IMG/VR virus record: IMGVR_UViG_3300034022_000539
DNA: 64,000 nucleotides
Source of the DNA: a virus
Lineage: Duplodnaviria; Heunggongvirae; Uroviricota; Caudoviricetes
Direction: 5' to 3' (one strand)
Shown here: in pieces, positions 9,770-44,773 of the stretch
How the letters are laid out: the number at the start of each line of letters is the position of its first letter
How positions within the stretch are numbered: position 1 is the first letter of the stretch
Translations under genes and position numbers: made by a program
The notes under the pieces: generated by a model
What the model was told of the DNA's origin: nothing
Database searches by the model: none
What the model saw: the letters and a program-made list of their open reading frames with translations, nothing else

Positions 9770-9804
9770 GTTTGTATTTTGTTTTTATTTTTGTTTTTAT
9801 TTAA

Positions 9805-10548: not shown

Positions 10549-10558
10549 ATCTGTTTTA

Positions 10559-11107: not shown

Positions 11108-11110
11108 GTT

Positions 11111-11428: not shown

Positions 11429-12021
11429 TATGTCATTTTTGGGTATTTTTTCTTAATTTCTTTATAGAATTTCTTGTAGTTTGTACCAGACATGTGATCT
11501 TCAGCTGCTCTAAGCAAATCTTCTAAAGAAGTCCACATTGTATTTGCTAATTGGTCTTGTGTTGTTGAAACTTGAGCCATTCTGTCTAGAATAGAATCAA
11601 TTATTTCAGGATTTAAAACAGTTTCAGTGCTAGGTTTTTCTGGACCCGCTGCTCTTTTAAGTGTCCACCAATCAACTTTCTTAGGAATAGTGTATGAAAC
11701 AATTCCTTTTTGTTGGTCATTTGGACTAATTTGTCCAGGTTTTCCAATATTACTAGTGATTTTATCTAAATCTAAATTATCATCAAAACCTTTTAATGCT
11801 TTCTGAATATCTTTAGTTAGATCCACATCTGCCATATTTGGCTCGGTTCTAAGATATATCATTGAAGTCGATGACATGTTAAATTCAACGCCTTTTACTT
11901 TAGAAAGCTCTTTCTTAAATTGTTTTTGATACTCATCAACATCTAACCCATTATTATATCCTGGGAAAATATCCATCTTAGCTTCATTAATAAATTCTTC
12001 GTATAGTTTTATGTACTTCAT
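11428..12021 (-). CDS. leader-family protein (197 aa; MKYIKLYEEFINEAK...)
   Basis: N-terminal leader. Confidence 0.65.
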   Translation of the reverse strand: MKYIKLYEEFINEAKMDIFPGYNNGLDVDEYQKQFKKELSKVKGVEFNMSSTSMIYLRTEPNMADVDLTKDIQKALKGFDDNLDLDKITSNIGKPGQISPNDQQKGIVSYTIPKKVDWWTLKRAAGPEKPSTETVLNPEIIDSILDRMAQVSTTQDQLANTMWTSLEDLLRAAEDHMSGTNYKKFYKEIKKKYPKMT

Positions 12022-12305
12022 TATTTCTTTTTTATGTTTTTACCATTTGGTGTTAATTCTCCGTTATCATCCATCACCGTAAAATGTTCTCTCGAATTTC
12101 CTTGTGTTAATTCTATAGATAAACCTTTGTTCATACCACCTGATTCAGTTGAAGACCACAATCTAACTACAGTCCAAATACCTTTTTCACCTTCAACTTT
12201 AACCTTATCCCATGTCTTAACTTCAGTTTGATCAGTAAATGATTTTATTAATTTATCTTCATTAGACTCGTTAATAAAATCTTCGTATAGTTTTGCATAT
12301 TTCAT
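12021..12305 (-). CDS. leader-family protein (94 aa; MKYAKLYEDFINESN...)
   Basis: N-terminal leader. Confidence 0.65.
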   Translation of the reverse strand: MKYAKLYEDFINESNEDKLIKSFTDQTEVKTWDKVKVEGEKGIWTVVRLWSSTESGGMNKGLSIELTQGNSREHFTVMDDNGELTPNGKNIKKK

Positions 12306-28187: not shown

Positions 28188-28916
28188 TTATTGTTTTTTT
28201 GCTGCTAGTTGTTCTTGAATCCAACGTTTACCTAATGGATTTTGAACTGGTGTACCCAAGTTTCTGTTAATTTGCTTTTCGGCTTGATCTAATAGATCTT
28301 CACCATATGCTGAATTATCAACAATTAACATTTTATCAGATCCAAATAGTTTTTGAAAGTGACCTAAGTTATTTTGAACTTCTTTCCACATTTTTTCAAC
28401 CATTTTATCTTCTAACTTTCTTTCTCTCATTTGATTTCGCTCTAATGCAACTTCTAATGATGTATTAACGAAAACCATATATGTATCATAACCTAAGTTT
28501 TGATAAATATCTCTAGTTTTACTAATCTTATCAAAATCTTTACCAGTTCCATCAATTACTTGACCTAATCTAGAATTTAAATAGTTATTTTGAAGTCCTC
28601 TGGTCAAGTTTTTAGCTTTATCTCTAATAACCATAACTTCAGCCCATTTTTCAGGATCTTTTGCTAAATCTGCAAGATCTCCTGCATTATATCCAGCATC
28701 TTTTAAGCCTTTTTCGAATGCATTATCGTTATTAACTAATTTAAGTCCAGTTGCATAAGACACTGAACCTACTTTTCCTTTTGGAAAATCAAAAAGTTCT
28801 GTTGCAACATAAGATTTACCACTTCCTGGTCCACCTGCCATAAAGAATGCCTTAAGGATTCCTGGATCATATACGCCCTCGCTTACAAATTCTTCAAATA
28901 ATTTGATATATTTCAT
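28188..28916 (-). CDS. leader-family P-loop nucleotide kinase-like protein (242 aa; MKYIKLFEEFVSEG...MAGGPGSGKSYVA)
   Basis: N-terminal leader plus a Walker A motif GGPGSGKS 25 aa in. This is the adenylate/dNMP-kinase-like arrangement. Confidence 0.7.
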   Translation of the reverse strand: MKYIKLFEEFVSEGVYDPGILKAFFMAGGPGSGKSYVATELFDFPKGKVGSVSYATGLKLVNNDNAFEKGLKDAGYNAGDLADLAKDPEKWAEVMVIRDKAKNLTRGLQNNYLNSRLGQVIDGTGKDFDKISKTRDIYQNLGYDTYMVFVNTSLEVALERNQMRERKLEDKMVEKMWKEVQNNLGHFQKLFGSDKMLIVDNSAYGEDLLDQAEKQINRNLGTPVQNPLGKRWIQEQLAAKKQ

Positions 28917-28956
28917 GATTATAAATTTATTTATATACTATATATCAAAATAAAAA

Positions 28957-28982
28957 AGGAGGTAACTTTAAAAGTACCTCCT
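28957..28982. terminator. bidirectional terminator AGGAGGTA-actttaaaag-TACCTCCT flanked by A6 and T-runs
   Basis: A perfect 8-bp stem. The minus-strand sense is followed by TTTTTTATTTT. Confidence 0.7.
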
Positions 28983-29007
28983 TTGAAATATTATTTAATA
29001 TATCTAA

Positions 29008-29385
29008 CTATTTTGCTATAAAAGCCGAAGTTGTTTTTTCACCATTTCTTAAAAGATTAGCAACTCTAGAATATCCATCTAATAAAACACCATCAACGAC
29101 AACTATTTCTAATGAAAGATCTCTTGGACTTACATCGTCATCAGTGTAACGTTCTTCTCCTGAATCATAATATTCTTTAAAATCAGGATCGGTTTTTAAT
29201 AAAGACTTCATATCAAAATCATCTACGTTTGCAAATGTTCTACCAACAATATCTTTTTTAAATCCATTTGGAATATTTTCTTTTTCAGGTGTAATATCTT
29301 TAATATGTCTCCATACTTCTGATCCCTTTAAATCATTATATTCATTTAAATTGTTGTAGTCTTCATATGTTTTAACGTGTCTCAT
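29008..29385 (-). CDS. leader-related protein (125 aa; MRHVKTYEDYNNLNEY...), divergent leader
   Basis: The N-terminus keeps M-[KR]-H-[VI]-K-x-[FY]-E-[DE]-[FY]. Confidence 0.55.
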   Translation of the reverse strand: MRHVKTYEDYNNLNEYNDLKGSEVWRHIKDITPEKENIPNGFKKDIVGRTFANVDDFDMKSLLKTDPDFKEYYDSGEERYTDDDVSPRDLSLEIVVVDGVLLDGYSRVANLLRNGEKTTSAFIAK

Positions 29386-29405
29386 AATCTAATGTACTTT
29401 TGTTA

Positions 29406-31841
29406 TTATCTTGGCCAAAGCATTACTGTTCCTGGATCTGCAAATTGACCATACCATCCACACTTATCTAAAAATTTAGCAAGATCTTTGTGAATACCTT
29501 GTGGAAATTTAGATCCTCCATGGTAATAGTTAAACATTTCATCTTTCGCATTTGGCATTAATAAACCGTCGTTACCACCTAACCAAATACCACCTTCTTC
29601 ACCGTCAAACTCTTCCGAATTTTTTACGAAACTAAGACCATATTTAGTAACCATTACGTTTTTCATTTCTACTCTTGATAAAATCTTAGCTTCATTCAAG
29701 TACTTAGATTCCTGTAAAGAATGCTCGTTAACAATAGACTCATCAACCTTAATTCCTCTTTTCTTAAGAAGTTTTTCAATTTCTTGATATGCTTTCTTAT
29801 AATCTGCTTTTGGATATTCAAATCCTTTTAACCAATTAGCATATCCACTTAATGCGTCATCATACATTTTCTTTAGATCTTCATCAGATGTTGAATTACT
29901 AAAGAAAAATGGTCCTACAAATGCCTCGTCAATAGAACCTGACATTAATTTATATTTCCATGATTTTAGTTTCTTTTCTAATTCAGCTTTATCTTCTGCT
30001 TCAAAATCAAACTCATCATTGTAACCATAGTATCCTTTACCACGTTTTTCAATGTAAGTTAATCCATCTTCACCGTCGTAGATTGCAATTTCTCTATCGT
30101 TATTATAAGTACCTTCTAAGATCTTTACACGTACGATGTCTTTTTTGGCAATACTATCTCCGTTAAAAACTAAATCATTATACATTTTACCAACAGAACC
30201 TTTAATTCCTTTTTTGGACTTTGTATCGATTGATAATACTTTATTAGTTCTGCTAAAATAATCTAACATATCGTAATCAAGATCTTTAGCATCTACTGTT
30301 TCGCCAGGACCTGGAAAGTTTTCATCTAAAGATTCAGTTTGAAAATGATTTCTATTAATCTTATTCAAATAATTTAATTCTTCGTCATTTAATTTAGTTG
30401 CAACTAATGATCTAAATTTACCACGTTGTTGAGAAGGCGTAAGCTTCATAAATTCAACAATATCTTTGTCATCTTTAATTTTATCAATGATTGATTTTAC
30501 AGCTTTATCAGATTTTCTTTTTTGCCACCAATTTTTTAAATCTTCAATTGGAGTAGTACCACCACCTGCACTTATTTTATTACCTAATAATGCTAATTGT
30601 CCCATAACCATGGCAGATTGCATTAGTATTAAAAATGTGGTTGCAGCATCTTCATTAATTGTAGATTCTAACATTTCTTCTTGCTCTGGAAAGTTTAAAC
30701 TTTTACCAGCTGCAACTTGAATACCCGTAGCACCTCTTAATGAAACTCTTAAATTGAATTTATCTCCATTTTCATTTTCAGCTTCAAAATCTCTAGTTGC
30801 TCCAGTTTTTGAACCAAATCCAGTTATTGTGTAAGTTCCTTTTTGAGTTTTAATTTTGTTTCCAATTTTAAAACCATTTGCCATTTTAGGACTAATCATT
30901 CCTTCAACTAATTTCACCAATTTCGAATCGATCCATTCTTCACTAGAACCATCCCATCTAATTAGAGATTTATTAGCTCTAGTTTTTACTAACTCACCAG
31001 TTCCTTGTAATTCACCTTTAGTATCATAAACATGTACTAACTCAACTGCTTCATCGATTGATTCATCACCGAATCTATAACCACTAAACATGTTTTTAGC
31101 TTTTACAAGATCATCTTGTGTACCCGTTCCTTGATATAATATTTTACAACTATCAGAATAGTTTTTTGCGTCACTTAGAACTTCTCTTACATCTGCTGCT
31201 CCAATTGCAATATAACCCGCACTGGTTGAATTTCCAGGATTTGTATATAAAACAAATTTTTGTTTTTTAGCTTCATTAAGGGTTGATTCTAACAATATTA
31301 ATCCAGCTGCCTTTGCTTCATCTCGTAATTCATCAAATTCTTCTATATCACTTCCTTTGATATAATCTGTTAAACCTCTAAAATTTTTAAAGTTTAACTT
31401 CTGTATTATATTAGTATTGCTATTATAAATAGCTCTTAAAAAATCTTTAACACCAGCAGAACTTAAATGTAATTCATTTAAAGTTTCTTCAAGGCTAATT
31501 GATTCCAATACTTTAGAATTATCTTCAATAGCTTCTAATGTATCTGGCATTGTTCTAATTCCCACTCCGAATTTTTCATCCCATCTTTCAGATTTATATC
31601 CTGTACAATATTTGTCTTTAAGATCTTTATGATTTGCAAAAACACCACCTGGTAAATTAGTGATAATAGTACCCTTTGGTAAAACTACATTAATATAATT
31701 ACCAATCTTAGCATCTTTGACATCCTTCTTTAATTCGTATTTACGATTATCTAAAGTGGTGATAGTTCTACCGCTTGTTCCAGAAATCATTTGCTTTGAA
31801 ACTTCGCTTATGAATTCTTCAAATAATTTAACTTTCTTCAT
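29406..31841 (-). CDS. leader-family large protein (811 aa; MKKVKLFEEFISEVS...)
   Basis: N-terminal leader. The body was not recognised. Confidence 0.7.
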   Translation of the reverse strand: MKKVKLFEEFISEVSKQMISGTSGRTITTLDNRKYELKKDVKDAKIGNYINVVLPKGTIITNLPGGVFANHKDLKDKYCTGYKSERWDEKFGVGIRTMPDTLEAIEDNSKVLESISLEETLNELHLSSAGVKDFLRAIYNSNTNIIQKLNFKNFRGLTDYIKGSDIEEFDELRDEAKAAGLILLESTLNEAKKQKFVLYTNPGNSTSAGYIAIGAADVREVLSDAKNYSDSCKILYQGTGTQDDLVKAKNMFSGYRFGDESIDEAVELVHVYDTKGELQGTGELVKTRANKSLIRWDGSSEEWIDSKLVKLVEGMISPKMANGFKIGNKIKTQKGTYTITGFGSKTGATRDFEAENENGDKFNLRVSLRGATGIQVAAGKSLNFPEQEEMLESTINEDAATTFLILMQSAMVMGQLALLGNKISAGGGTTPIEDLKNWWQKRKSDKAVKSIIDKIKDDKDIVEFMKLTPSQQRGKFRSLVATKLNDEELNYLNKINRNHFQTESLDENFPGPGETVDAKDLDYDMLDYFSRTNKVLSIDTKSKKGIKGSVGKMYNDLVFNGDSIAKKDIVRVKILEGTYNNDREIAIYDGEDGLTYIEKRGKGYYGYNDEFDFEAEDKAELEKKLKSWKYKLMSGSIDEAFVGPFFFSNSTSDEDLKKMYDDALSGYANWLKGFEYPKADYKKAYQEIEKLLKKRGIKVDESIVNEHSLQESKYLNEAKILSRVEMKNVMVTKYGLSFVKNSEEFDGEEGGIWLGGNDGLLMPNAKDEMFNYYHGGSKFPQGIHKDLAKFLDKCGWYGQFADPGTVMLWPR

Positions 31842-32631
31842 TTGTTTTAAATGTTTTTATATGATTCTTTATTTCTTCTTCTTTTAATTCTTGATCCCAT
31901 TTTATAAAGAATATGGTTTCATATACATTATCTCCCATCATGTCATACATTGATTTGAGTTGTATTAATTCAAATTCTTCTTGATCTTTATCAGAATCTT
32001 TTAAATGGGATATTAATCCTCTGAAGTTATATATCTCGTTGTATTTAAGATCAGTCTCTTTGTAATTCATTATCTTGGAACCATAGTACTCCAAATGAAA
32101 TCCCAGCTCTTCTAAAGGCTTAATTAAATTTAACTTATGATTCTTAATGATACGCTTACTAGGCAGACCAGCGTTTCCATAAAAACAAATGGCTATCTGT
32201 TTAGACCATTTAGAAACCCAATCAGAACACACACCCACAACCTTATCGATGTTCGTGTCATTACATGAAATAGTATTAGAAGTGTATTGATTTGTGATAT
32301 TAGACCAAGGAATACCCTTAGAAGTTATTGTAATATTATCACTTTTGTTATAGAAGAAATTAAGAGATGGAGCATTCTCTAATAAAAAAGAAAACGTTTG
32401 AGTATCCATGCAATTAATCCATAGATATTCTAAACGTTTTATATTTGTAAGCCAATCCCAATCTATTTGGGTTTTTGGTCCATTTGCACCTAAAAAGAAT
32501 TTATTGTCTTGATACCAAAAATCTATTTTGACATTGTATCCTTGTTGAATTGCGAAATCTATATAATCTGGTGTATTTTCTAATAATACGTTAGGTCCTG
32601 TAATATTACCTTTGTTCGATATTAATAACAT
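31828..32631 (-). CDS. hypothetical protein (267 aa)
   Basis: Long ORF. Its start overlaps the end of the 811-aa gene. Confidence 0.6.
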   Translation of the reverse strand: MLLISNKGNITGPNVLLENTPDYIDFAIQQGYNVKIDFWYQDNKFFLGANGPKTQIDWDWLTNIKRLEYLWINCMDTQTFSFLLENAPSLNFFYNKSDNITITSKGIPWSNITNQYTSNTISCNDTNIDKVVGVCSDWVSKWSKQIAICFYGNAGLPSKRIIKNHKLNLIKPLEELGFHLEYYGSKIMNYKETDLKYNEIYNFRGLISHLKDSDKDQEEFELIQLKSMYDMMGDNVYETIFFIKWDQELKEEEIKNHIKTFKTNEES

Positions 32632-32644
32632 AAACGTTTATTAG

Positions 32645-32884
32645 TTATACATCTAAACTATCATGTGTTTCATTCTCTTTACGCTTTAATTGCCAGCGAA
32701 ATAATATGGATAGCCCAAAGAACGACGCCGCAATAAAATACATAACGAAATTGGCGCGCCAAAGACTTCCAGTCGTCTGGATCAACCAGTACTGAATTAC
32801 GTCGAACCCAAGCGGATTGAAAAATAGGGCTACCATCATGCTCCATGTTGATAGACGGCTTTTTAGTTTTTTCGTTATACTCAC
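32645..32884 (-). CDS. small membrane protein (79 aa), in a locally GC-richer segment
   Basis: Two overlapping candidate frames exist (32645-32884 and 32679-32900). The frame with TM-like hydrophobic helices was chosen. The segment 32690-32830 has atypical GC content. Confidence 0.35.
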   Translation of the reverse strand: MSITKKLKSRLSTWSMMVALFFNPLGFDVIQYWLIQTTGSLWRANFVMYFIAASFFGLSILFRWQLKRKENETHDSLDV

Positions 32885-32901
32885 GACTGTCTGCTTCCAT
32901 A

Positions 32902-33867
32902 TTAGTTAATATACATATTCAATTCAAATTTATCGTTTCCTCTATTATAAATTTGAACATGTAAAGATTTCTTTTGTTCCTTATCGTTTTTAAAAAGTGT
33001 TAAGGTATCTTTTTTGGTTTTACCATCATTTGGTTTAAAGAATGCATCTATATAAGCATCACCGTATTCTTTAGGATCTAATGTATATCCTTGAGAATTA
33101 GCATATATTTCAACTGCATTAATAGCTGAGGAATAGAGATTGTGATAAACTGGATAGTCATCTTTCTTCTCATTAACTACGCTTTCTTTTAAACCTAATT
33201 CTTTGTGTAATACTGACATGAATGGTCCAAAATTATGTGTACCGTATTCATCGATCAATACCTTAGCAACTGCTAATGCAAAATCAGTGTATGACAAAGA
33301 GTCATCAATTTTAATAATTGCTGAATCAATTCCTTTTGCTAATGCATCAGAATTTTTAGATTCACTAATATAAACGAATTTATCGCCTTTGAATGCTTTA
33401 TTTAAATCTTTAAGTAAATCTTCTGGTCCAGTGTGTTCTGCTGTTGAAAACCATTTACCTCTGTATTGAAAATCTCCATCATAATCAACTTTAACCATAC
33501 CATCATCTGAGAATATAAATGCATTTTCATCATCTTCCCAATCAACTGTGATTTTCTTTTCTTTAATACCATCAACACCATCCATTGCATCATGAACTGC
33601 GTTTAGATTGTCCACCGCTCCAGTGATTTGAGAAAACATCCAAGATTCTAATTTTTGACCGCCTTTCATGCGATCTCCGATCATTTCAGCATAATCTTCA
33701 ATTCTTTCTAATTGACCTAAAGTCATATTATTTAATTCAGTAAGAGTATCACCTTCTTCAGTAATTGATTTTTCTGACATATAAAATGCAGCATACTGTT
33801 CTCTTGACATATTCTGCTGAGAAGCAGCAATATTTAGATAATCGTCGAATAATTTAACTATTTTCAT
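32902..33867 (-). CDS. leader-family protein (321 aa; MKIVKLFDDYLNIAAS...)
   Basis: Divergent but recognisable leader. Confidence 0.65.
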   Translation of the reverse strand: MKIVKLFDDYLNIAASQQNMSREQYAAFYMSEKSITEEGDTLTELNNMTLGQLERIEDYAEMIGDRMKGGQKLESWMFSQITGAVDNLNAVHDAMDGVDGIKEKKITVDWEDDENAFIFSDDGMVKVDYDGDFQYRGKWFSTAEHTGPEDLLKDLNKAFKGDKFVYISESKNSDALAKGIDSAIIKIDDSLSYTDFALAVAKVLIDEYGTHNFGPFMSVLHKELGLKESVVNEKKDDYPVYHNLYSSAINAVEIYANSQGYTLDPKEYGDAYIDAFFKPNDGKTKKDTLTLFKNDKEQKKSLHVQIYNRGNDKFELNMYIN

Positions 33868-33881
33868 GATTTGTATTTTAT

Positions 33882-34220
33882 TTAATATTCAAATGGTGGT
33901 GTACCATAATCAGCACGTTTAACAGCATACCAAACTCGACCTACTCTGAAATACCAGAATGTTGGTGTGTCAATGATATAGTGTTGTCCTTTAATAGTTA
34001 CGTCTTTGTAACCACCTCTTGTAAAGTTCTTTGTTACAGGAACTCCGTCGTCCCATGTTTTATCAGTAGATTGTGCTTTGAAAGTTTTACCACTAAAGGT
34101 TGCTAAATAAATTTCTGCAGGTTTACCTTCTGATTTTTCGTCTTTAGTAAAAGCTTCTAAACCGATTGGCATTTCATTACCTTCGTTTACGAATTCTTCA
34201 AATAATTTAGTGTGTTTCAT
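33882..34220 (-). CDS. leader-family protein (112 aa; MKHTKLFEEFVNEGN...)
   Basis: N-terminal leader. Confidence 0.65.
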   Translation of the reverse strand: MKHTKLFEEFVNEGNEMPIGLEAFTKDEKSEGKPAEIYLATFSGKTFKAQSTDKTWDDGVPVTKNFTRGGYKDVTIKGQHYIIDTPTFWYFRVGRVWYAVKRADYGTPPFEY

Positions 34221-34408
34221 TTGTAATCTTGTTTTTCACGAGGTTGTCTCTTTCTTAAATTAATTTCGTCTCTTAATTCTTTGATCCTATCTTTGATAAT
34301 CATAATTCTATAATTATGCCATTTTCTAACTATAAAACATTTAGATTTATTTGCTTCTAAGTTTTCTAGTTCGGATTCAAAAAATTTAACCAATTTAAAG
34401 AGTGCCAC
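34217..34408 (-). CDS. small basic protein (63 aa)
   Basis: ORF with a 4-nt overlap to the downstream gene. Confidence 0.4.
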   Translation of the reverse strand: MALFKLVKFFESELENLEANKSKCFIVRKWHNYRIMIIKDRIKELRDEINLRKRQPREKQDYK

Positions 34409-34421
34409 CGTGTGTATTGTT

Positions 34422-34760
34422 TTATTGTTTTTCGTTAGCTCTGCACCAAACTACTGCATCTTTTGGAGTTTTTAACTCTTCATCATATCCACTTAAGTCA
34501 TAAATACCTAAGATAGTTTGACCATCGTCATTTAAATAGAATGAAAATTCTTCCATGTCACCTTCGTGTCTTGGAGCTTCAGATTCTAATCCATTTGCAA
34601 AGTGTACAATATGTGGAAATTCTTCTTGATCGTCATGTCCCCAAATAAGTTTTTCTACATTTTTGGCTTTAGCAAGTTCTTTAAATAATTTTACTAAAAT
34701 CTCTGGTTTAGGTGATTTAGCTTCATTTAAGAATTCTTCGAATAATTTAGTGTGTTTCAT
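34422..34760 (-). CDS. leader-family protein (112 aa; MKHTKLFEEFLNEAK...)
   Basis: N-terminal leader. Confidence 0.65.
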   Translation of the reverse strand: MKHTKLFEEFLNEAKSPKPEILVKLFKELAKAKNVEKLIWGHDDQEEFPHIVHFANGLESEAPRHEGDMEEFSFYLNDDGQTILGIYDLSGYDEELKTPKDAVVWCRANEKQ

Positions 34761-34766
34761 AATATC

Positions 34767-35096
34767 TTATTTATATTCTTTTTCGTATTTAGCTTTTAAT
34801 TCTTCCCAAGCTGCTTTGTATTTAGCAGGAATTTTAGAAGGTTCATAAATTCTTGAATTTGATCTTTTGCTTGATCCTACTTTATAGTTTGAACCAGTGT
34901 ATTGTTCCATGAATTCATCTCCAACTTTTTTATCACCATCAGCTTTAACATAAATACCATATGTGATAAATGTATCACCGTCTAAGTGACCTTCTAAAAT
35001 ATCACAACAAGGATTATGATCCTTGTTAGAATTAAATTTAAAGTCAATGAATTTACCTTCGTTGATAAATTGTTCAAATAGTTTAATGTGTTTCAT
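34767..35096 (-). CDS. leader-family protein (109 aa; MKHIKLFEQFINEGK...)
   Basis: N-terminal leader. Only 5 nt separate it from the upstream stop. Confidence 0.65.
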   Translation of the reverse strand: MKHIKLFEQFINEGKFIDFKFNSNKDHNPCCDILEGHLDGDTFITYGIYVKADGDKKVGDEFMEQYTGSNYKVGSSKRSNSRIYEPSKIPAKYKAAWEELKAKYEKEYK

Positions 35097-35101
35097 AATT
35101 A

Positions 35102-35371
35102 TTAAATTAATTTTGCTTTTGCTAATTTTGCTTTTAAAAGTTTACCAACTCTAGATTCAATTCCAGGAGATCTAAAAGAACCACCTATTTCGTTAGCTTC
35201 TTTTTTAATTAAAGTGATTAAGTCATCGATAGCAACTTCAACGTTAGCCATTAAATCTTCTTCTCTTGCTTCTTCGTCATCTGAAATAGTACCATCAGAT
35301 TTCTTTTCAGTAATCGTCTTAGGTAATTCAATTTTATTTGCGAAAGCTTCGAAAGGTTTTGCGTATTTCAT
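35102..35371 (-). CDS. leader-related protein (89 aa; MKYAKPFEAFANKIE...)
   Basis: Divergent leader. Confidence 0.55.
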   Translation of the reverse strand: MKYAKPFEAFANKIELPKTITEKKSDGTISDDEEAREEDLMANVEVAIDDLITLIKKEANEIGGSFRSPGIESRVGKLLKAKLAKAKLI

Positions 35372-35404: not shown

Positions 35405-35992
35405 TTAATTAAAAAGCTCTTTTAGTTTTTCGTTTTTTATCATATTTGTTACAGCTAATTCATAATTACTAGCCTCTGCATAATTTGCACCCAAATAACT
35501 TAAATATTGTTCTTCTGTATTAAGGTCTCTAAGATAAGCTGATTGAAATATTGCATAATCTAAGATTGATTCTTTCCAATTATCGTAATAAGCATGACCT
35601 AAATTAGTTCCACGTGCAGTAGTAGTTCTTTGTTTAGCTTCTTTCATACCAAACAAATTATTATTAGATCTAAAGATATTACTTTGAAAATGGCCGCTTT
35701 CTATAAGAGCTTGAGCTAATACAATATGTGGGTATTTTACATTAAGTCGCTTAAGTTCTTCTACCACAGCTTCTTTTGAAAACTCATTCTTGGATATTTC
35801 ATTAACTATTAAGACTTTTTGTTCATATGACATGTTAGTCATGGATTTAGCGGAAGCTTTCTGTGTGGCCACATTGTATGTGGTATAATAAGTAATGCCT
35901 AAGAAGAGCAAAGATGCTCCTATGGCTTTAAGCATTTTTCGGGGATTAATTCGTTTAAAAGTTAACGAGTCTTTACAATAAGTGTATAACAT
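35405..35992 (-). CDS. membrane-anchored peptidoglycan hydrolase, mannosyl-glycoprotein endo-beta-N-acetylglucosaminidase (FlgJ-like glucosaminidase) domain; 195 aa
   Basis: An N-terminal TM/signal-anchor (LLFLGITYYTTY) is followed by LAQALIESGHFQSNIFRSNNNLFGMKE, the glucosaminidase signature. Confidence 0.7.
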   Translation of the reverse strand: MLYTYCKDSLTFKRINPRKMLKAIGASLLFLGITYYTTYNVATQKASAKSMTNMSYEQKVLIVNEISKNEFSKEAVVEELKRLNVKYPHIVLAQALIESGHFQSNIFRSNNNLFGMKEAKQRTTTARGTNLGHAYYDNWKESILDYAIFQSAYLRDLNTEEQYLSYLGANYAEASNYELAVTNMIKNEKLKELFN

Positions 35993-36170: not shown

Positions 36171-36192
36171 TTCATAAAAGTTGCGAACAATT
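36171..36192 (-). promoter_or_regulatory. TTGTTCGCAAC upstream box (variant of TTGTTCGTAAC) + TTTTATGAA
   Basis: Same module order as on the plus strand. Confidence 0.45.
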
Positions 36193-39100
36193 TAGAATAC
36201 GAACTGGAATGTCTTTAATAAGTCTTTTCCTTTTGTTGAATTTGCTTCAACATTGAACTCATTGTATAGTTTTGTATACATTAAGTCCCATTCGTCTTTA
36301 TCAGCTAAAGTGTTTAATTCATTTGCATTGTCTTTGATAAATTTCTTAACATCAGATCTTAAATCTTCGTTAACCTTTACCTCAAACATTTCTACTAAAG
36401 CATCTAACGTTAATTTAGATTCTTCTACGAATTCCTTAGCATTTTTTTTATCGTCTGGTCCAGCGTCTTCTACTTTATAAGTTTCGCCTTCAAATTCAAA
36501 TTCTTTTGCACCATCTGCAATAGCTTTTGCTCTTGCTGCACCGAATGCATTTCCTTCTTCAATAACTGGAAAGGTTTTACCATTAAATTCAAATTCTTCA
36601 GCATCTTCTTCGATTGCTTTAGCTCTTGCAGCCAAGAATGCATTTCCTTCTTCTACGAATTCTTTTGCATTTTCTTTATCGTCTGCTCCAACATCTTCAA
36701 CTTTATAAGTTTCACCTTCAAATTCAAATTCTTTAGCACCATCTGCAATTGCTTTAGCTCTTGCGGCACCGAATGCATTTCCTTCAGATACTACTAATTC
36801 AAGATCTTTATCTTTACCAGCAACAGCTGCGTCTAATTCTGCTTCTAATTCTCTTTTCTTAGCTGTCAATGCTTTCATTTCATCCAACAATTCAGATTTT
36901 CTATCGCCTTCAGCTACTTTCCACTCACCTGCTTTTTGTTGCATTTTAGTAGTAGTTTCACTCCATTCTTTTTGGATTTTATTGATTGATCTACCTTCAT
37001 TAACAACAGATTCATCAATAGCATTTGGATATTTAGTATCTTTAGCTAAATCTAAAAGAGCTTTAATATCTTCTGCCTTATTTCTATTGTATTTGTCAGC
37101 ATTCTTTTTATCTTTGAATATCGCAGATACTTGTTTACCATTATCATCAATCATAATGATAATACCTTTTTTACCATAAACTCTCTCGTCTGTAACAGAT
37201 ATACCTTCAATAACTACTGATTCTTTAGTCAATTCATTAGGTGCGTGCTTGTGCATTTCTCCGTTTGGTAATTCTACATTATAGTATTTTTCATCCTCTG
37301 CGCCATCTTCTTTATCTAAAGAAACAATTACACCAGTTCCACCATGTGACATTTTTACTTTGTCGCCAACTTTAAAATGTGATTCAGTAACTTTAGATTC
37401 ATATTTATCAGCTTGATTATTTTTAATATCATCTGCTGACATTTGATCAACTAATCTTTTAAATAAAGTTATTGTAGCTGGACCATAAAAACCATCTTCT
37501 TCATATCCTCTAGTAGGTCTGCCCATTTCATAGTCTCCAATGTGTGAAGCAAGTTCCATTGCATTATCTAATAGATTTTGACCATTACCACCACCTTTGA
37601 AAGTTTTTTCAGATGCGGTTTCAACATATTTTATTAGATCAGCCGCAGATTCATTAACTTTAGATTCTGACATATTTGCATCTAATACTTTTTGGAATGA
37701 TTTAGCATCAGTAACTTCTTCGCCAAATAATTCAATTGTTTCGTCATTTAGATTAATATAAATTTCAGAACCTTGATGTTTCATGTCTAAAATTATAGTC
37801 ATATAATCTTTACCAATTGCAGTACCACCGCTAATATACTTACCAGCTTTTTCAGCCCATGTAGCAGCTTTCTTAACCAATGAAGTTGCATAACTTCCTT
37901 TTCTTTTAGCAAAATCTAAAACATTAGAAGGTACTCTTGCTGCTTCAGTAACTTTAGATTCATCATACTCTTCATAATCATCATCGTACTCTTCTTCTTG
38001 GTACCATGATTGATTTGGATCATGTTCTGCTTCTTGTGTAAAATCGTGCTTTTTGAAGTTGAAACGTTTTGGATCTTCAACTAAAGCTGGGAAAAGAACT
38101 TTTCCACTAACTTTCTTTTTATCAAATGCAATATCAATACCATCTTGTCTATTAGGATTTTCAATTCCATTCATTTGAGCTAATAATTCGTAGTAATCTT
38201 TACCACCGAATTCACCGTAACCGTCATATTTCTTTTCTTCCCATTTATTACCTTTGTCATCAAACATTGTAATAGTAATGGTATTTTGTTTTTCAGAACC
38301 AATTTGATTTCCAGTATCTTGAGCCATCCATGAGAATTGACCTTCGTTAACTACTGACTCGTCCATGTTTTCTTTAGCAGTATCGTAAATTGTTTGTAAC
38401 CATGCTTCAAATTGACCTGGTTCACCAGCACTAGATAAGTCATGATGTTCTTTTTTAAACTCTTTTACAAATGATTTAAAATCTTTTGCTTCTTGAGCCA
38501 TAATATCAATATCTGACATTGCACTCTCGTGTAATTTTGGATTTTTTATGTTTTTTACAATAGTATCAAGCTTATCATCAAAATAACCATATACCGGTGA
38601 TCCTGGAACTGCATGATTAACTACTTCTCCGTTATGATAAATATTGTAAGATCCACCTGCATATTCTTCGCCATCTACATCTAAATCAAATGAATCTTCT
38701 TCTAGTGATTTTTTATTAACAGTAGCTTTAACACCATCTGCTTTAGAAAGAGCGCTAGCATATAATTCTGCAACCTTTTTTGTATCGTCTAATGTAAGAC
38801 CTGCTGGTTTTTTAGAAGATTCTAAAAGTTCAGGATAGTATTCTTCAATAGTTTCTTGATCCATTTCATAGAAATCACTTTTAAGATATGCAAGAATGTC
38901 TTTTTTCTTACCAGTTACTTCGAAAGTTCCTTCTTGACGAATGTCCTGACTACCGCGACCCAGACTCATTGGTTCAACTTTGATCTTATATTTCTTGAAA
39001 GCTGCTTTAGCTGCTTTGTCTTCTTCTTTGTCTAAATCATCCCATGCCATATCAACCTCAACAGTGATGACTTCACTTTCACCTACAAAAGATTCAAATT

Positions 39101-39770
39101 TAAAATCTTGATTCTTTTGTGATTCAGCACTTACTACAGCTAATAAACCAACTTTAGATTTAGGTACCTTTAATTCGATGATTGCTTTTTGTTTAGCATC
39201 CCAAAGATCTTTACCTTCTACTTCGATTTTCTTGTTATTAAAGAATGCAAAGAATAAAGTTTCGTTAACCTTATTTGCTTCTAAAGACTCTTTAATACTT
39301 AAGTCTTTTAAACTTCTAACAGGTACACCTTTTGTTTCACCATCTTCTGGATTTGAAAATGCTAATAAACCTGCAGCAATTAATCTCTTATAAAGCTCGG
39401 TTTTAACTAATTCAAAATCAATAGAGTCTGATGAATTTTCCCAAGTATCTGCTACATATTCTGGATCAATCCAACCAATACCTCTCTTGATACTGGTTTC
39501 CATATCCTTGTAATCCGTTTCGAATTGCTTGATCTTTCCTTCATTGATCTCTGCATTTGCAAGAGATAATGATTTCATGGCTGATAATTTATCAGTAAAA
39601 AATACTAAAGCCTCATTTAAAGACAAAGGTTCTTTGATATTTTTTGTAAGCGTTTCAGCTTTTATAGAGCTTTTAGTCTCTGACTTTAATAAAGCTATTT
39701 TAACCGCTTCAGCAGTATAGCTTGCTCCAGTCGTAACTTCTTTATTATTGAAATTAATAAATGATGACAT
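36192..39770 (-). CDS. large acidic protein (1192 aa) with three near-identical internal repeats EGNAFGAARAKAIADGAKEFEFEGETYKVED (nt ~36470-36895)
   Basis: Long ORF. Nucleotide-level near-identity between repeat copies suggests recent duplication. Confidence 0.75.
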   Translation of the reverse strand: MSSFINFNNKEVTTGASYTAEAVKIALLKSETKSSIKAETLTKNIKEPLSLNEALVFFTDKLSAMKSLSLANAEINEGKIKQFETDYKDMETSIKRGIGWIDPEYVADTWENSSDSIDFELVKTELYKRLIAAGLLAFSNPEDGETKGVPVRSLKDLSIKESLEANKVNETLFFAFFNNKKIEVEGKDLWDAKQKAIIELKVPKSKVGLLAVVSAESQKNQDFKFESFVGESEVITVEVDMAWDDLDKEEDKAAKAAFKKYKIKVEPMSLGRGSQDIRQEGTFEVTGKKKDILAYLKSDFYEMDQETIEEYYPELLESSKKPAGLTLDDTKKVAELYASALSKADGVKATVNKKSLEEDSFDLDVDGEEYAGGSYNIYHNGEVVNHAVPGSPVYGYFDDKLDTIVKNIKNPKLHESAMSDIDIMAQEAKDFKSFVKEFKKEHHDLSSAGEPGQFEAWLQTIYDTAKENMDESVVNEGQFSWMAQDTGNQIGSEKQNTITITMFDDKGNKWEEKKYDGYGEFGGKDYYELLAQMNGIENPNRQDGIDIAFDKKKVSGKVLFPALVEDPKRFNFKKHDFTQEAEHDPNQSWYQEEEYDDDYEEYDESKVTEAARVPSNVLDFAKRKGSYATSLVKKAATWAEKAGKYISGGTAIGKDYMTIILDMKHQGSEIYINLNDETIELFGEEVTDAKSFQKVLDANMSESKVNESAADLIKYVETASEKTFKGGGNGQNLLDNAMELASHIGDYEMGRPTRGYEEDGFYGPATITLFKRLVDQMSADDIKNNQADKYESKVTESHFKVGDKVKMSHGGTGVIVSLDKEDGAEDEKYYNVELPNGEMHKHAPNELTKESVVIEGISVTDERVYGKKGIIIMIDDNGKQVSAIFKDKKNADKYNRNKAEDIKALLDLAKDTKYPNAIDESVVNEGRSINKIQKEWSETTTKMQQKAGEWKVAEGDRKSELLDEMKALTAKKRELEAELDAAVAGKDKDLELVVSEGNAFGAARAKAIADGAKEFEFEGETYKVEDVGADDKENAKEFVEEGNAFLAARAKAIEEDAEEFEFNGKTFPVIEEGNAFGAARAKAIADGAKEFEFEGETYKVEDAGPDDKKNAKEFVEESKLTLDALVEMFEVKVNEDLRSDVKKFIKDNANELNTLADKDEWDLMYTKLYNEFNVEANSTKGKDLLKTFQFVF

Positions 39771-43102: not shown

Positions 43103-43702
43103 TTATTTGTATGCTCTAATTGTTGATATTTGTATTCCTTCATGTTCTTGTTCTAATGATTTTACTAATACTAAATTAGCCTCATCATCATCGTAAAATT
43201 GTAGGTCACTGTAACCCATATCGATCAATTCTCTAAACGCTTGTTTTTTACGATCCGATATACTACCTTTGAATTTATGTACTGAATCATTCACTGCAAA
43301 AATAAGATCTTTGTCGATTCTAAATCCAACATGTTCTCTTAACCATCTATAAATCATTTCTCTATCATCTCTTGCTGTAACAATTCCAACTGCGATGCGT
43401 GATTTATAAGCTTCTTTAAATATGTCTAAGTAATGTTCAATCATTTGACCAGCTTTCATAATCTCTAATGATTTAAATTCATCAAAGTTTAATTCATGAT
43501 CTGCATGTTTTTCATAACTATTAAATTCTTCTGGAGTCAGTGAATAACATTCTCCTGTTTTCTTATTGCAAACCTTTATTTTTGCTGATGAAATTACTAA
43601 AGTATCGTCAAGATCAAACACAAGAATCTTGGAACCATGATATGGTTTTCCAGCTCTGTTTACCTCATTTAGGTATTCTGTGTAATTTTTAACGTGTTTC
43701 AT
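43103..43702 (-). CDS. leader-family HAD-superfamily phosphatase (199 aa; MKHVKNYTEYLNEV...LVFDLDDTLV)
   Basis: A divergent leader is followed by HAD motif I DxDxT (FDLDDTL) and a later T-A-R-D motif. Confidence 0.7.
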   Translation of the reverse strand: MKHVKNYTEYLNEVNRAGKPYHGSKILVFDLDDTLVISSAKIKVCNKKTGECYSLTPEEFNSYEKHADHELNFDEFKSLEIMKAGQMIEHYLDIFKEAYKSRIAVGIVTARDDREMIYRWLREHVGFRIDKDLIFAVNDSVHKFKGSISDRKKQAFRELIDMGYSDLQFYDDDEANLVLVKSLEQEHEGIQISTIRAYK

Positions 43703-43732
43703 CTTAGCTTATACTTAAAAATCTAATAATGT

Positions 43733-43996
43733 TTATTTATTAGATTCTATTTTTATTTTCAATGCAGTAAGTTTTATATCAATTTTTGATATTTCTGCTT
43801 GCATGGAAAGTTTCTGTGCAGTTAATGCTAACATTTCAGATTTTAATGGATCCTCTTCGTTTCTCATTGCTTTTGCAGTTTCAGCAGCTTTAGTTTTAAT
43901 CTCGTTTCTTTTAGAATCTAATTCTCTAACTTTAAGATTTAGGTCAGCTACTTTTTGAGCATCCTCAAATAATTGGAAAGTTTTCAGGTGTTTCAT
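43733..43996 (-). CDS. leader-related coiled-coil protein (87 aa; MKHLKTFQLFEDAQ...)
   Basis: Divergent leader. Confidence 0.55.
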   Translation of the reverse strand: MKHLKTFQLFEDAQKVADLNLKVRELDSKRNEIKTKAAETAKAMRNEEDPLKSEMLALTAQKLSMQAEISKIDIKLTALKIKIESNK

Positions 43997-44288
43997 CTTT
44001 TGGTATTTCTTTTTCTATTTCTAGAGTCCATAGTCTATTATTAGGTACTACGAATTTTCTTTCATGTCCAAAAACATAAAAAGTTGTTTTGTATATATTT
44101 TGTCTAACTATTCTAGCTTTCTTTGCGCCTTTAATATAAACTATATCATCTACATTAAAATCATTGCCCCATAAAAACTGCATACCAATAACAAGATTAG
44201 CAATCATGTCTTTGAATGTAAATGAAATTATAGCTACTGCTGTCACCCAACCCCATTCTGATATGTATTGTCCTATTAACTCTTTCAT
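43965..44288 (-). CDS. small membrane protein (107 aa)
   Basis: ORF with an N-terminal hydrophobic helix. Its end overlaps the start of the next gene. Confidence 0.5.
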   Translation of the reverse strand: MKELIGQYISEWGWVTAVAIISFTFKDMIANLVIGMQFLWGNDFNVDDIVYIKGAKKARIVRQNIYKTTFYVFGHERKFVVPNNRLWTLEIEKEIPKDETPENFPII

Positions 44289-44773
44289 ATTAGTCCCATT
44301 GCACTTAAATTTTGTAGAACCACTTGTTGACTTAACATTATAACTTGTGAAGCTTCTATTTTGTCCATAAATTTGGCATTATCAATTTCTTCACGCTGTA
44401 ATTGCCCTTTAGGTACCACTAGATCTTTAAGTCCTATTTTAGACAGGTCATCTATTTCAACTATAAAATAATAAATAACTTTATTATACTTATACTTTCT
44501 AGAAGTTAAAACAAATGTACGTTCAATTTTACTTATTAAAGATTTAGGAACTTTAATACCGAACTCTTCATAAGTTTCTCTGATAGCAGCATCTAAATGT
44601 GATTCACCTTCTTCGATGCCACCTTTAGATATACCATAACCAGTTCCTTCTTTTCTACCTCTAGATTGACCTAACAAAATTTTACCATCAAACACAATCG
44701 CAAGACCAGCTGAATATCTAGTGTCTAGATATTTCTCGTTGATAAATTGATCATATTTTTTTAGGTGTTTCAT
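44285..44773 (-). CDS. leader-family NUDIX hydrolase (162 aa; MKHLKKYDQFINEKY...)
   Basis: Has an intact Nudix box GGIEEGESHLDAAIRETYEEFGI (Gx5Ex7REUxEExGU). Confidence 0.8.
   Translation of the reverse strand: MKHLKKYDQFINEKYLDTRYSAGLAIVFDGKILLGQSRGRKEGTGYGISKGGIEEGESHLDAAIRETYEEFGIKVPKSLISKIERTFVLTSRKYKYNKVIYYFIVEIDDLSKIGLKDLVVPKGQLQREEIDNAKFMDKIEASQVIMLSQQVVLQNLSAMGLI

What the first reader, a model, noticed from the sequence alone, without database searches (positions are those of the whole stretch)
28188..35371. Second cluster of leader-tagged proteins including a P-loop kinase and an 811-aa protein
Nine genes in this cluster carry the same leader. The P-loop kinase starts MKYIKLFEEFVSE followed by GGPGSGKS. 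The others start MRHVKTYEDY, MKKVKLFEEFISE (811 aa), MKIVKLFDDYLN, MKHTKLFEEFVNE, MKHTKLFEEFLNE, MKHIKLFEQFINE and MKYAKPFEAFANK. The leader is attached to proteins ranging from 89 to 811 aa, including an enzyme. That argues for a portable tag rather than a domain.
Basis: seen in the sequence. Interest (0 to 1): 0.75.

Follow-up and report, generated by a model that had tools for sequence, protein, structure and literature searches.

The report
Capsid-targeting leader on phage cargo proteins
A 13-residue tag at the start of many unrelated proteins of an uncultured, T4-related jumbo phage most likely sends them into the phage head and is then cut off by the head protease, as the known T4 'capsid targeting sequence' does, so it marks a large set of proteins the phage probably carries into its host.

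Summary
Nine minus-strand ORFs in 28188-35371 start with M-K-x-[IV]-K-L-F-E-[EQ]-F-[IVL]-[NS]-E; three of the nine are degenerate. Eight more tagged ORFs lie elsewhere in the window. The proteins behind the tag are unrelated by BLASTP and hhalign, and they include a P-loop kinase, a NUDIX hydrolase and a weak HAD-like match. So 'portable tag' holds.

Best explanation: a T4-type capsid targeting sequence, that is, a propeptide removed by a gp21-family (Peptidase_S77) prohead protease after [ILV]-x-E.
- The leader ends in EF-[IVL]-N-E, against EFIAE in T4.
- Conservation stops at residue 13.
- The same [ILV]-N-E motif follows the protease domain and opens the major capsid protein in related contigs.
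- A tagged protein sits between portal and protease in all 79 head loci examined.
- Inside the 811-aa, 321-aa and 1192-aa proteins, shortened leaders (ES[VI]VNE) fall where standalone tagged homologues begin, so these are probably polyproteins.

The window comes from a 261-kb metagenomic contig. Syntenic 236-kb and 256-kb relatives carry T4-type portal, protease-scaffold and capsid genes.

Cleavage and packaging are inferred, not shown, and the protease gene of this genome was out of reach. Verdict: new variant of a known kind, of moderate interest.

The parts
28188..28916 (-). Tagged P-loop kinase, 242 aa. Leader MKYIKLFEEFVSE is at 28878-28916; the body starts GVYDPGILKAFFMAGGPGSGKS.
   Evidence: The 120 listed orthologues (72-98% identity) are invariant at Glu13 and Gly14 in the 20 aligned, while the leader varies. 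In the AF2 model residues 1-20 have pLDDT below 50 and lie outside the kinase core. Foldseek top hits are polynucleotide kinase, adenylate kinases and zeta toxin.
29008..29385 (-). Tagged 125-aa protein with a degenerate leader, MRHVKTYEDYNNLNE. L-N-E falls at residues 13-15.
   Evidence: No Pfam or PHROG family.
29406..31841 (-). Tagged 811-aa multi-module protein, a probable polyprotein. Leader at 31803-31841. Internal shortened leaders: EETLNE (31473-31490), ESTLNE (31272-31289), DESIDE (31050-31067), KLVE|G (about aa 309-312), ESTINE (30651-30668), ESIVNE (29724-29741), SKYLNE (29691-29708).
   Evidence: In other contigs the modules occur as separate tagged proteins whose leader end aligns with the internal motif: aa 1-114 (L007, L008), 262-317 (L162), 313-398 (L009), 713-811 (L005, L020, L025, L107).
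31828..32631 (-). Untagged 267-aa ORF inside the cluster.
   Evidence: Matches phrog_34507, function unknown.
32645..32884 (-). Untagged 79-aa hydrophobic protein, conserved at this position in relatives.
   Evidence: 65-67% identity in L014 and L020.
32902..33867 (-). Tagged 321-aa protein with a degenerate leader (MKIVKLFDDYLNI, no Glu13) and an internal ESVVNE at 33169-33186 that separates two modules.
   Evidence: Residues 222-321 match standalone tagged 100-aa proteins (L003 9426-9728, L113, L129) whose leader aligns with LKESVVNE.
33882..34220 (-). Tagged 112-aa protein, MKHTKLFEEFVNE|G.
   Evidence: No known family.
34217..34408 (-). Untagged 63-aa ORF inside the cluster.
   Evidence: Homologue in L003.
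34422..34760 (-). Tagged 112-aa protein, MKHTKLFEEFLNE|A.
   Evidence: No known family.
34767..35096 (-). Tagged 109-aa protein, MKHIKLFEQFINE|G.
   Evidence: No known family.
35102..35371 (-). Tagged 89-aa protein with a degenerate leader, MKYAKPFEAFANK. It is the first gene of the cluster.
35405..35992 (-). Untagged glucosaminidase-domain protein with an N-terminal hydrophobic segment. It is a conserved anchor gene next to the variable cargo cluster.
   Evidence: Pfam Glucosaminidase 1.9e-15. Conserved in L003, L005, L014, L015 and L019.
36192..39770 (-). Untagged 1192-aa protein with five internal shortened leaders: ESVVNE (38343-38360), ESKVTE (37944-37961), ESKVNE (37650-37667), ESKVTE (37383-37400), ESVVNE (36996-37013). 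It also has three ~45-aa repeats at 36396-36818, each preceded by [VI]-x-E. Probable head-core or cargo polyprotein.
   Evidence: The repeats are homologous to part of the scaffold half of protease-scaffold proteins in L226, L228 and L230. Tagged standalone homologues start at aa 411-413 and aa 790.
9083..12305 (-). First cluster: six adjacent tagged ORFs of 94-247 aa carrying the same leader.
   Evidence: No Pfam family. Bodies unrelated to each other and to cluster 2.
43103..44773 (-). Three more tagged ORFs: 43103-43702 (weak HAD-like match, MKHVKNYTEYLNE), 43733-43996 (MKHLKTFQLFED) and 44285-44773 (NUDIX, MKHLKKYDQFINE).
   Evidence: NUDIX 1e-12. The HAD hits are below the Pfam cut-off.

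Best explanation
The leader is a capsid targeting sequence of the T4 type. It is a short amphipathic N-terminal propeptide (M-K-x-[IV]-K-L-F-E-[EQ]-F-[IVL]-[NS]-E) that docks newly made proteins onto the scaffold core of the assembling prohead. The gp21-family (Peptidase_S77) prohead protease then removes it by cutting after the final Glu ([ILV]-x-E). The mature proteins stay in the DNA-filled head and are probably ejected into the host with the genome.

The cluster 28188-35371, with its neighbour 36192-39770, is a variable island of such head cargo genes in a roughly 261-kb T4-related jumbo phage that probably infects Bacteroidota. The 811-aa, 321-aa and 1192-aa proteins are chains of cargo modules joined by shortened leaders (ES[VI][VL]NE) that keep only the cleavage half of the tag. 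One N-terminal tag could therefore load a chain that the protease cuts into pieces.

Shown: the tag, its boundary, the unrelated bodies, the motif in other head proteins of relatives, the module boundaries, and T4-type head genes in syntenic relatives.

Inferred: docking to the core, cleavage, packaging and ejection.
For: (1) Portability.
- 17 tagged ORFs in the window have mutually unrelated bodies.
- There are 332 distinct tagged ORFs in the window and the fetched loci, in at least 125 body clusters.

(2) Sharp boundary. Residues 1-13 are conserved (Glu13 in 278 of 332). Position 14 is A/S/K/E/G and everything after it is variable.

(3) Match to the known T4 system.
- The T4 tag is MKTYQEFIAE, cut once by gp21 (PMC8442874).
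- gp21 cuts after L/I-x-E. Tag residues 4 and 7 serve targeting and residues 8 and 10 serve processing (PMC9026906).
- Here the leader begins MK, has hydrophobic or aromatic residues at 4, 7 and 10, and ends EF-[IVL]-N-E.

(4) The lineage has the enzyme.
- Syntenic relatives of the window carry Portal_T4 (4.6e-70), Peptidase_S77 (1.4e-11, 44.7 bits against a cut-off of 27) fused to a scaffold-like region, and Gp23 (5.5e-41).
- These relatives include the 236-kb contig of L014/L172 and the 256-kb contig of L019/L277.

(5) The same motif marks other expected substrates.
- The protease domain is followed by AEL.RVNE[SA] in all 75 proteases where the motif search applied.
- 23 of 27 distinct capsid-protein N-termini read M-x-x-L-[IL]-N-E-[AS]-E or a close variant.

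(6) A tagged small protein lies between portal and protease, the position of T4 gp67/gp68. It shows the strict pattern in 56 of 79 head loci and a variant leader in the other 23.

(7) Internal motifs.
- E[SEQF]x[ILV][NSTD]E occurs in the window proteome only at leader positions 8-13 and inside the 811-aa, 321-aa and 1192-aa proteins.
- At least six of these internal sites align with the leader end of standalone tagged homologues.

(8) The kinase keeps its E|G-V-Y-D-P junction while the leader changes with lineage.
- Within this lineage: MKYIKLFEEFVGE, MKHVLTLEQFISE and MKIIKNYNDFLVEKAELNE.
- In the T4-like phage Melnitz: MKTFAELQE.

(9) The leader is not part of the folded kinase. pLDDT is below 50 for residues 1-20.

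(10) Repeats in the neighbouring 1192-aa protein recur inside the scaffold half of protease-scaffold proteins.
Against: - There is no direct evidence of cleavage, packaging or ejection. The lineage is uncultured: tblastn of the 811-aa protein, the 513-aa protein and the portal-adjacent tagged protein finds nothing among 50,697 phage records.
- The protease, portal and capsid genes were not seen on the window's own contig. Only 8-9 kb beyond each window end could be read, and neither flank holds head genes.
- Three of the nine leaders in this cluster, and 16% overall, lack Glu13.
- The resemblance to the 10-residue T4 tag is too short for a statistical test of homology.
- Enzymes such as the kinase, NUDIX and HAD-like proteins could equally be needed in the cytoplasm during infection.
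- Packaging 17 or more different proteins, some very large, has no precedent among T4-like phages.
Confidence: 0.78

Rival explanations
1. The leader is a shared docking peptide that is not removed, or it targets another destination: a different virion compartment such as the tail or baseplate, a phage-made intracellular compartment, or a common chaperone.
For: No processing data exist. The cluster lies next to tail-fibre-like genes and a glucosaminidase. 16% of leaders lack Glu13. The genome is jumbo-sized, and some jumbo phages sort proteins into compartments.
Against: - The leader ends in the recognition motif of the T4-family prohead protease, and that motif recurs after the protease domain and at the capsid-protein N-terminus.
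- A tagged protein sits inside the head gene module in all 79 loci examined.
- Internal shortened leaders keep only the [ILV]-N-E half, which makes sense for cleavage but not for docking.
Confidence: 0.1
2. The leader is a timing or turnover signal. It would be an N-terminal recognition tag for a protease or unfoldase, for example the phage-encoded ClpB/ClpA-like AAA+ protein in the left flank, and would control the stability of a set of phage proteins.
For: A 671-aa Clp-like AAA+ gene lies just left of the window on the source contig (L036 242-2257). N-terminal tags are a known way to address proteins to such machines (general knowledge).
Against: This does not explain the match to L/I-x-E, the motif in the capsid protein and protease, the tagged gene inside the head module, or the module-boundary motifs. 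No link between the tag and the AAA+ gene was found.
Confidence: 0.05
3. The conservation is at the nucleic-acid level. It would be a shared translation-start region or recombination site for late genes, with the peptide as a by-product.
For: The start regions are A/T-rich and lack Shine-Dalgarno sequences. Conserved 39-nt stretches could promote the module shuffling that is observed.
Against: 32% of identical-residue positions use different codons, and substitutions are conservative at the protein level: F/Y, I/V/L, E/Q/D. Shortened copies occur inside ORFs, far from any start codon. A recombination role may add to the peptide function but cannot replace it.
Confidence: 0.03
4. The nine genes are one expanded paralogous family whose bodies have diverged beyond recognition. 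The shared N-terminus would then be a remnant of common descent, not a portable tag.
For: The genes are adjacent, on the same strand and mostly small, as expected for tandem duplication.
Against: There is no body similarity by BLASTP or hhalign. Two bodies hit different Pfam families above cut-off (kinase, NUDIX) and a third gives a weak HAD-like hit. Kinase homologues in other phages lack this leader. The tag is on at least 125 body clusters.
Confidence: 0.02

Closest known systems
Capsid targeting sequence (CTS) of phage T4 internal proteins IPI, IPII, IPIII and Alt (Mullaney and Black 1996; reviewed in PMC9026906, PMC3012670, PMC8442874)
   Same: A short N-terminal propeptide shared by otherwise unrelated proteins of one phage. 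It begins MK, has hydrophobic or aromatic residues spaced 3-4 apart, and ends EF-I-x-E with the L/I-x-E motif of the gp21-family protease. The phage lineage encodes T4-type portal, S77 protease, scaffold and Gp23 capsid protein. The cargo genes form a variable island.
   Different: The leader is 13 residues rather than 10, with its own consensus (K-L-F-E-E/Q-F inserted). There are at least 17 tagged genes in 64 kb, against a handful in T4. The cargo includes recognisable enzymes (kinase, NUDIX) and 321- to 811-aa multi-module chains. Nothing has been shown experimentally.
T4 prohead core proteins gp22, gp67 and gp68, which gp21 cuts at several sites into small peptides
   Same: The 1192-aa and 811-aa proteins carry many internal [ILV]-x-E sites. 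A tagged small protein occupies the gp67/gp68 position between portal and protease. Repeats of the 1192-aa protein recur in the scaffold half of protease-scaffold proteins.
   Different: No sequence similarity to gp22, gp67 or gp68 was detected. In this lineage the protease and scaffold are one polypeptide. The internal sites here are clearly derived from the leader itself.
Long propeptides of ejection and inner-body proteins in phiKZ-like and SPN3US giant phages (PMC5694885, PMC10052503)
   Same: Jumbo phages with many head-internal proteins processed after Glu by a gp21-related protease. Some paralogues share conserved N-termini, and propeptides hold several cleavage sites.
   Different: Most of those propeptides are over 100 residues and are not one short universal tag. 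This lineage has T4-type Gp23, portal and S77 genes, not the phiKZ-type head.
Polyvalent proteins and MuF- or portal-fused effectors (Iyer, Aravind and colleagues; PMC9503650)
   Same: Virion-delivered multi-module proteins and packaged enzymes such as Nudix, deployed early in infection. That paper predicts packaged Nudix proteins from gene context.
   Different: Delivery there is by covalent fusion to a structural domain. Here it would be by a removable address tag, with protease-cleavable linkers between modules. No MuF or portal domain was found in the tagged proteins.

Membership tests
T4-type capsid targeting sequence (CTS) | Short (10-20 residue) N-terminal peptide shared by otherwise unrelated proteins of the same phage | tested here: met
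   A 13-residue leader on 17 window ORFs. Bodies are unrelated. At least 125 body clusters in relatives.
T4-type capsid targeting sequence (CTS) | The peptide ends in the prohead-protease recognition motif L/I-x-E, and conservation stops there | tested here: met
   [IVL]11-x-E13 in 6 of the 9 leaders here. Glu13 in 278 of 332 overall, with conservation collapsing at residue 14. The motif definition is from PMC9026906.
T4-type capsid targeting sequence (CTS) | The phage encodes a gp21-family (Peptidase_S77) prohead protease and a scaffold core | tested here: inconclusive
   Met in syntenic relatives: L174 has Peptidase_S77 at 1.4e-11, and the protease is on the same contigs as L014 and L019. 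Not seen on the window's own 261-kb contig, because only 8-9 kb beyond each window end was readable.
T4-type capsid targeting sequence (CTS) | The leader is removed by the protease in the prohead | not testable with these tools
   Only comparative support exists: the same motif after the protease domain and at the capsid-protein N-terminus, and internal motifs at module boundaries. Virion mass spectrometry or an in-vitro cleavage assay is needed.
T4-type capsid targeting sequence (CTS) | Tagged proteins are present inside mature heads, and the tag is sufficient to package a foreign protein | not testable with these tools
   No cultured member was found.
T4-type capsid targeting sequence (CTS) | Sequence homology to the T4 tag MKTYQEFIAE | tested here: inconclusive
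   Both share the MK start and the EF-I-x-E end. 10-13 residues are too few for a significance test.
phiKZ/SPN3US-type long propeptides | Propeptides of about 100 residues or more, with S/A/G-x-E sites, in phages with a phiKZ-type head | tested here: not met
   The leader is 13 residues. Head genes of relatives are T4-type: Gp23, Portal_T4 and S77.
Sec/Tat signal peptide or bacteriocin/RiPP leader | A hydrophobic core of at least 7 residues (Sec/Tat), or a double-glycine leader with dedicated maturation genes | tested here: not met
   The leader has three Lys and three Glu and no hydrophobic run. It sits on cytosolic enzyme folds. No maturation or export gene was seen among the window proteins scanned against Pfam or PHROGs.
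MuF- or portal-fused polyvalent effectors | Effector domains covalently fused to a MuF or portal structural domain | tested here: not met
   No MuF or portal domain in any tagged protein or in the 1192-aa protein.

The most novel reading that the evidence does not exclude
The tag is a readable address label. It lets a widespread, uncultured group of T4-related jumbo phages load dozens of different proteins into the head for delivery into Bacteroidota hosts. The load includes enzymes (kinase, NUDIX, HAD-like, nucleotidyltransferase-like) and chains of small modules that the head protease cuts apart. The more than 100 tagged families would then be a ready-made catalogue of injected host-takeover and anti-defence proteins. 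The cleavable module chains would be a new way of building and shuffling such cargo.
Probability: 0.45. Interest if true: 0.7.

Novelty: new variant of a known kind. Interest (0 to 1): 0.55.

Why it matters
If the tag works as in T4, injected proteins of uncultured phages can be predicted from sequence alone: any ORF that starts with the leader is a candidate. In the loci fetched here that already gives 332 distinct proteins in at least 125 families, nearly all of unknown function. It also suggests that enzymes acting on nucleotides or nucleic acids arrive with the DNA.

It would extend a mechanism known from T-even coliphages to abundant freshwater and marine jumbo phages. It would also show how cargo genes evolve, by fusion and fission at the tag. 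A short, portable packaging tag with its own protease could be useful for engineering protein delivery by phages of Bacteroidota.

Tried and rejected
- Pfam and PHROGs on the tagged bodies: nothing except the kinase, the NUDIX hydrolase and a weak HAD-like match.
- PDB sequence search with the kinase: no hit.
- tblastn of the 811-aa protein, the 513-aa protein and the portal-adjacent tagged protein against 50,697 phage records: no match. So there is no cultured model.
- The nearest known capsid-protein relatives were inspected around their head genes: uncultured LR756500.1, Tenacibaculum phage PTm1 and Flavobacterium phage MaF61. None has the leader. Neither do the fetched HTVC008M and Melnitz kinase regions or the T4 head region.
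- Full-text search for the leader strings (KLFEEF, KLFEQF, KLYEEF, KLFEDF): no papers.
- T4-type late promoter TATAAATA: 12 matches against 13.5 expected, so not enriched. Several minus-strand copies do lie just upstream of gene starts, including 28916.
- The sigma-70 promoter scan was uninformative.
- The AF2 model of the kinase is only moderate (pLDDT 63.8). I use it only for 'P-loop kinase fold' and 'leader not in the core'.
- Reaching the head genes of the source contig failed. The look-up gives at most 10 kb beyond a window gene, and those flanks hold nucleotide-metabolism genes.
- One expanded family, a signal peptide and a pure DNA-level element were each considered and rejected, for the reasons given under the rival explanations.
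Full report
**Observation**

Six carry the full consensus M-K-x-[IV]-K-L-F-E-[EQ]-F-[IVL]-[NS]-E. Three are degenerate and lack Glu13: 29008-29385, 32902-33867 and 35102-35371. Three ORFs inside the span are untagged: 31828-32631, 32645-32884 and 34217-34408.

The tag is not limited to this cluster. Six adjacent ORFs at 9083-12305 carry it, as do 43103-43702, 43733-43996 and 44285-44773. That makes 17 of 82 ORFs of at least 60 aa. None of 4052 shuffled N-termini matches the pattern, against 332 real ones in the window and the fetched loci.

The codons differ at synonymous sites. 32% of identical-residue positions use different codons, and the replacements are conservative: F/Y, I/V/L, E/Q/D. 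Selection therefore acts on the peptide.

**Are the bodies one family?**

No.
- With the leader removed, the 17 window proteins show no significant BLASTP similarity. The best E-value is 0.006, in a 17-sequence database.
- The best hhalign probability among 136 profile pairs is 4.1%.
- The kinase hits Zeta_toxin and AAA_33 and has a P-loop kinase fold. Foldseek's top hits are polynucleotide kinase 4gp6, adenylate kinases and zeta toxin, on a moderate model.
- 44285-44773 is a NUDIX protein (1e-12). 43103-43702 gives only weak HAD hits, below the Pfam cut-off.
- In related contigs the tag sits on at least 125 separate body clusters.

**Where the window comes from**

Exact-protein look-ups place the window at about 175,825-239,824 of a 260,917-bp metagenomic contig.

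The host is probably a member of the Bacteroidota. The evidence is G+C near 30%, no Shine-Dalgarno sequences, and an SprB repeat in a fibre-like protein. In addition, the capsid protein of a syntenic relative is closest to those of Lak (Prevotella), Tenacibaculum and Flavobacterium phages.

No cultured phage carries relatives of the 811-aa protein, the 513-aa protein or the portal-adjacent tagged protein.

IMG/VR holds many relatives. 27 loci match the 811-aa protein.

Contigs of 170-256 kb share gene order with the window across the glucosaminidase, the small membrane protein, the 128-aa protein and the tail fibre. The tagged genes between these anchors differ from contig to contig. This is a variable cargo island between conserved anchors.

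**Link to head assembly**

Searching all fetched loci with T4 head proteins found T4-type portal (1e-26 to 1e-29), gp21-like protease (2e-9) and gp23-like capsid protein (3e-10) next to leader matches.

In a 234-kb relative, Pfam gives Portal_T4 4.6e-70, Peptidase_S77 1.4e-11 (above the cut-off), Gp23 5.5e-41, and a Gp44-type clamp loader. The protease is fused to a long scaffold-like repeat region.

This protease-scaffold gene lies on the same contigs as relatives of the window's cargo cluster. These are the 234-236-kb contigs of L013, L014 and L028 and the 256-kb contig of L019.

Three features tie the leader to this protease.
- The protease domain is followed by AEL.RVNE[SA] in all 75 proteases where the motif search applied.
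- 23 of 27 distinct capsid-protein N-termini read M-x-x-L-[IL]-N-E-[AS]-E or a close variant.
- A tagged small protein lies between portal and protease, the position of T4 gp67/gp68. It has the strict pattern in 56 of 79 loci and a variant leader in the other 23.

**Comparison with T4**

In T4 the first 10 residues of the internal proteins, MKTYQEFIAE, are the capsid targeting sequence. They bind the proteins to the scaffold core and are cut off once by gp21 (PMC8442874; PMC3012670). gp21 cuts after L/I-x-E. Residues 4 and 7 of the tag serve targeting and residues 8 and 10 serve processing (PMC9026906).

The leader here begins MK, has hydrophobic or aromatic residues at 4, 7 and 10, and ends EF-[IVL]-N-E. 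Conservation stops at Glu13, and position 14 is A/S/K/E/G.

The kinase illustrates the junction.
- All 120 listed orthologues (72-98% identity) read E then G-V-Y/H-D at the junction, whatever the leader: MKYIKLFEEFVGE, MNRVKLFEEFVGE, MKHVLTLEQFISE or MKIIKNYNDFLVEKAELNE. Glu13 and Gly14 are invariant in the 20 that were aligned.
- The homologue in the T4-like phage Melnitz starts MKTFAELQE|GVYDP. The one in HTVC008M starts MIPFILKE|GLYDP.
- In the AF2 model, residues 1-20 are of low confidence and lie outside the kinase core.

**Polyproteins**

The motif E[SEQF]x[ILV][NSTD]E occurs in the window proteome only at leader positions 8-13 and inside three proteins: the 811-aa protein (four sites), the 321-aa protein (one) and the neighbouring untagged 1192-aa protein (five). 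A looser pattern adds more sites.

At least six of these internal sites align with the leader end of standalone tagged homologues elsewhere.
- 811-aa protein, residues 1-114: L007 and L008.
- 811-aa protein, residues 262-317: L162.
- 811-aa protein, residues 313-398: L009.
- 811-aa protein, residues 713-811: L005, L020, L025 and L107. In L107 the homologue sits directly after the portal gene.
- 321-aa protein, residues 222-321: L003, L113 and L129.
- 1192-aa protein, from residue 790: L067.

The internal sites keep the [ILV]-N-E half of the leader and lose the M-K-x-x-K-L-F half. This is expected if the first half docks the protein and the second half is the cleavage site.

One kinase orthologue is joined to a HAD-like domain through KKMNE|A. 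The 1192-aa protein ends in three ~45-aa repeats, each preceded by [VI]-x-E. These repeats recur inside the scaffold half of protease-scaffold proteins of other contigs.

**Mechanism proposed**

- Shown: a peptide-level tag with a sharp boundary on unrelated proteins; the same motif at other expected protease substrates; internal shortened tags at module boundaries; T4-type head genes, including an S77 protease, in syntenic relatives.
- Inferred: the tag binds the scaffold core, the protease cuts after Glu13 and at the internal sites, the mature proteins remain in the head, and they enter the host with the DNA.
- Not obtained: the protease gene of this genome, and any proteomic or biochemical evidence.

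I put 0.78 on this explanation.

**Rivals**

- A tag that is not removed or that targets another destination: 0.10.
- A turnover signal: 0.05.
- A nucleic-acid-level element: 0.03.
- One diverged family: 0.02.

The reasons are given under each rival. The conserved leader DNA may in addition help recombination shuffle the cargo genes, but that is speculation.

**Novelty and score**

The kind of system is known from T4. The differences are these:
- a distinct 13-residue consensus, for which a full-text search of the leader strings found no paper;
- the scale, with 17 tagged genes in 64 kb and at least 125 body clusters in relatives;
- recognisable enzymes as cargo;
- chains of modules joined by shortened tags;
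- occurrence in a widespread, uncultured jumbo-phage lineage.

I class it as a new variant of a known kind, with interest 0.55. The finding is real and coherent and gives a practical handle on injected proteins of uncultured phages. The principle, however, is established and the key steps remain inferred.

Noticed in passing
window 1657-6528 (+): Five to six copies of a 64-104-nt intergenic element, with core ...GCTTTGGGTTGTCATTTA..GTGTATATTTACTCTATAATTAAAAC..ATATG. Each lies just upstream of a small plus-strand gene. It looks like a repeated promoter and start region for an early-type gene block of higher G+C.
   Followed up: partly
window 36396-36818 (-), inside the 1192-aa ORF: Three ~45-aa repeats (GNAFGAARAKAI..EFEFEGETYKV), each preceded by [VI]-x-E. 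They are homologous to a stretch inside the scaffold half of protease-scaffold proteins in L226, L228 and L230.
   Followed up: partly
window 40610-41356 (-); L036 3111-4405; window 12327-17396 and 45739-49822: Sugar-pathway genes. A DAHP_synth_1 (KdsA-like) gene is in the window. SIS and CTP_transf_3 genes are in the left flank of the source contig, which together suggests a phage-encoded KDO-type pathway. There are also two NAD-dependent epimerases and several ORFs that look like glycosyltransferases from their sequence, which were not tested.
   Followed up: no
L031 4609-9144 (right flank of the source contig): NAMPT/NAPRTase, a phosphoribosyltransferase-like gene and a nucleoside deoxyribosyltransferase-like gene. 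This could be an NAD-salvage set, which may bear on the tagged NUDIX protein.
   Followed up: no
window 28928-28935, 36083-36090, 40264-40271, 14003-14010, 53571-53578, 59608-59615 (-): TATAAATA, the T4-type late-promoter core, lies 3-90 nt upstream of several minus-strand gene starts, including the kinase. The motif is not enriched in the window overall: 12 found against 13.5 expected. A related ATATATARTAT motif precedes 28916, 35371 and 17396.
   Followed up: partly
window 17500-27196 (-): A block of large fibre-like proteins. It includes a collagen-like tail fibre (20234-24118), a 450-aa protein with an SprB repeat (24139-25491), a Pro/Thr-rich repeat protein (25517-27196), and a 906-aa protein with weak VWA and intein-splicing hits.
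   Followed up: no
window 58143-58217 (-): A single tRNA-Ala (tgc) gene.
   Followed up: no
P0101 (kinase orthologue, 409 aa): The kinase is fused to a HAD-like domain through a KKMNE|A linker, and its leader is a different variant (MIKLIDLLKESQIEE). This is a further example of modules joined at cleavage-type motifs.
   Followed up: partly
L001 (Pelagibacter phage HTVC008M) 1381-9332: The untagged kinase homologue sits among genes that, from their N-terminal sequences alone, look like a HAD-like protein, a nucleotidyltransferase and a ligase. No family search was run on them. If correct, this hints that the kinase belongs to a nucleic-acid repair or modification set.
   Followed up: no
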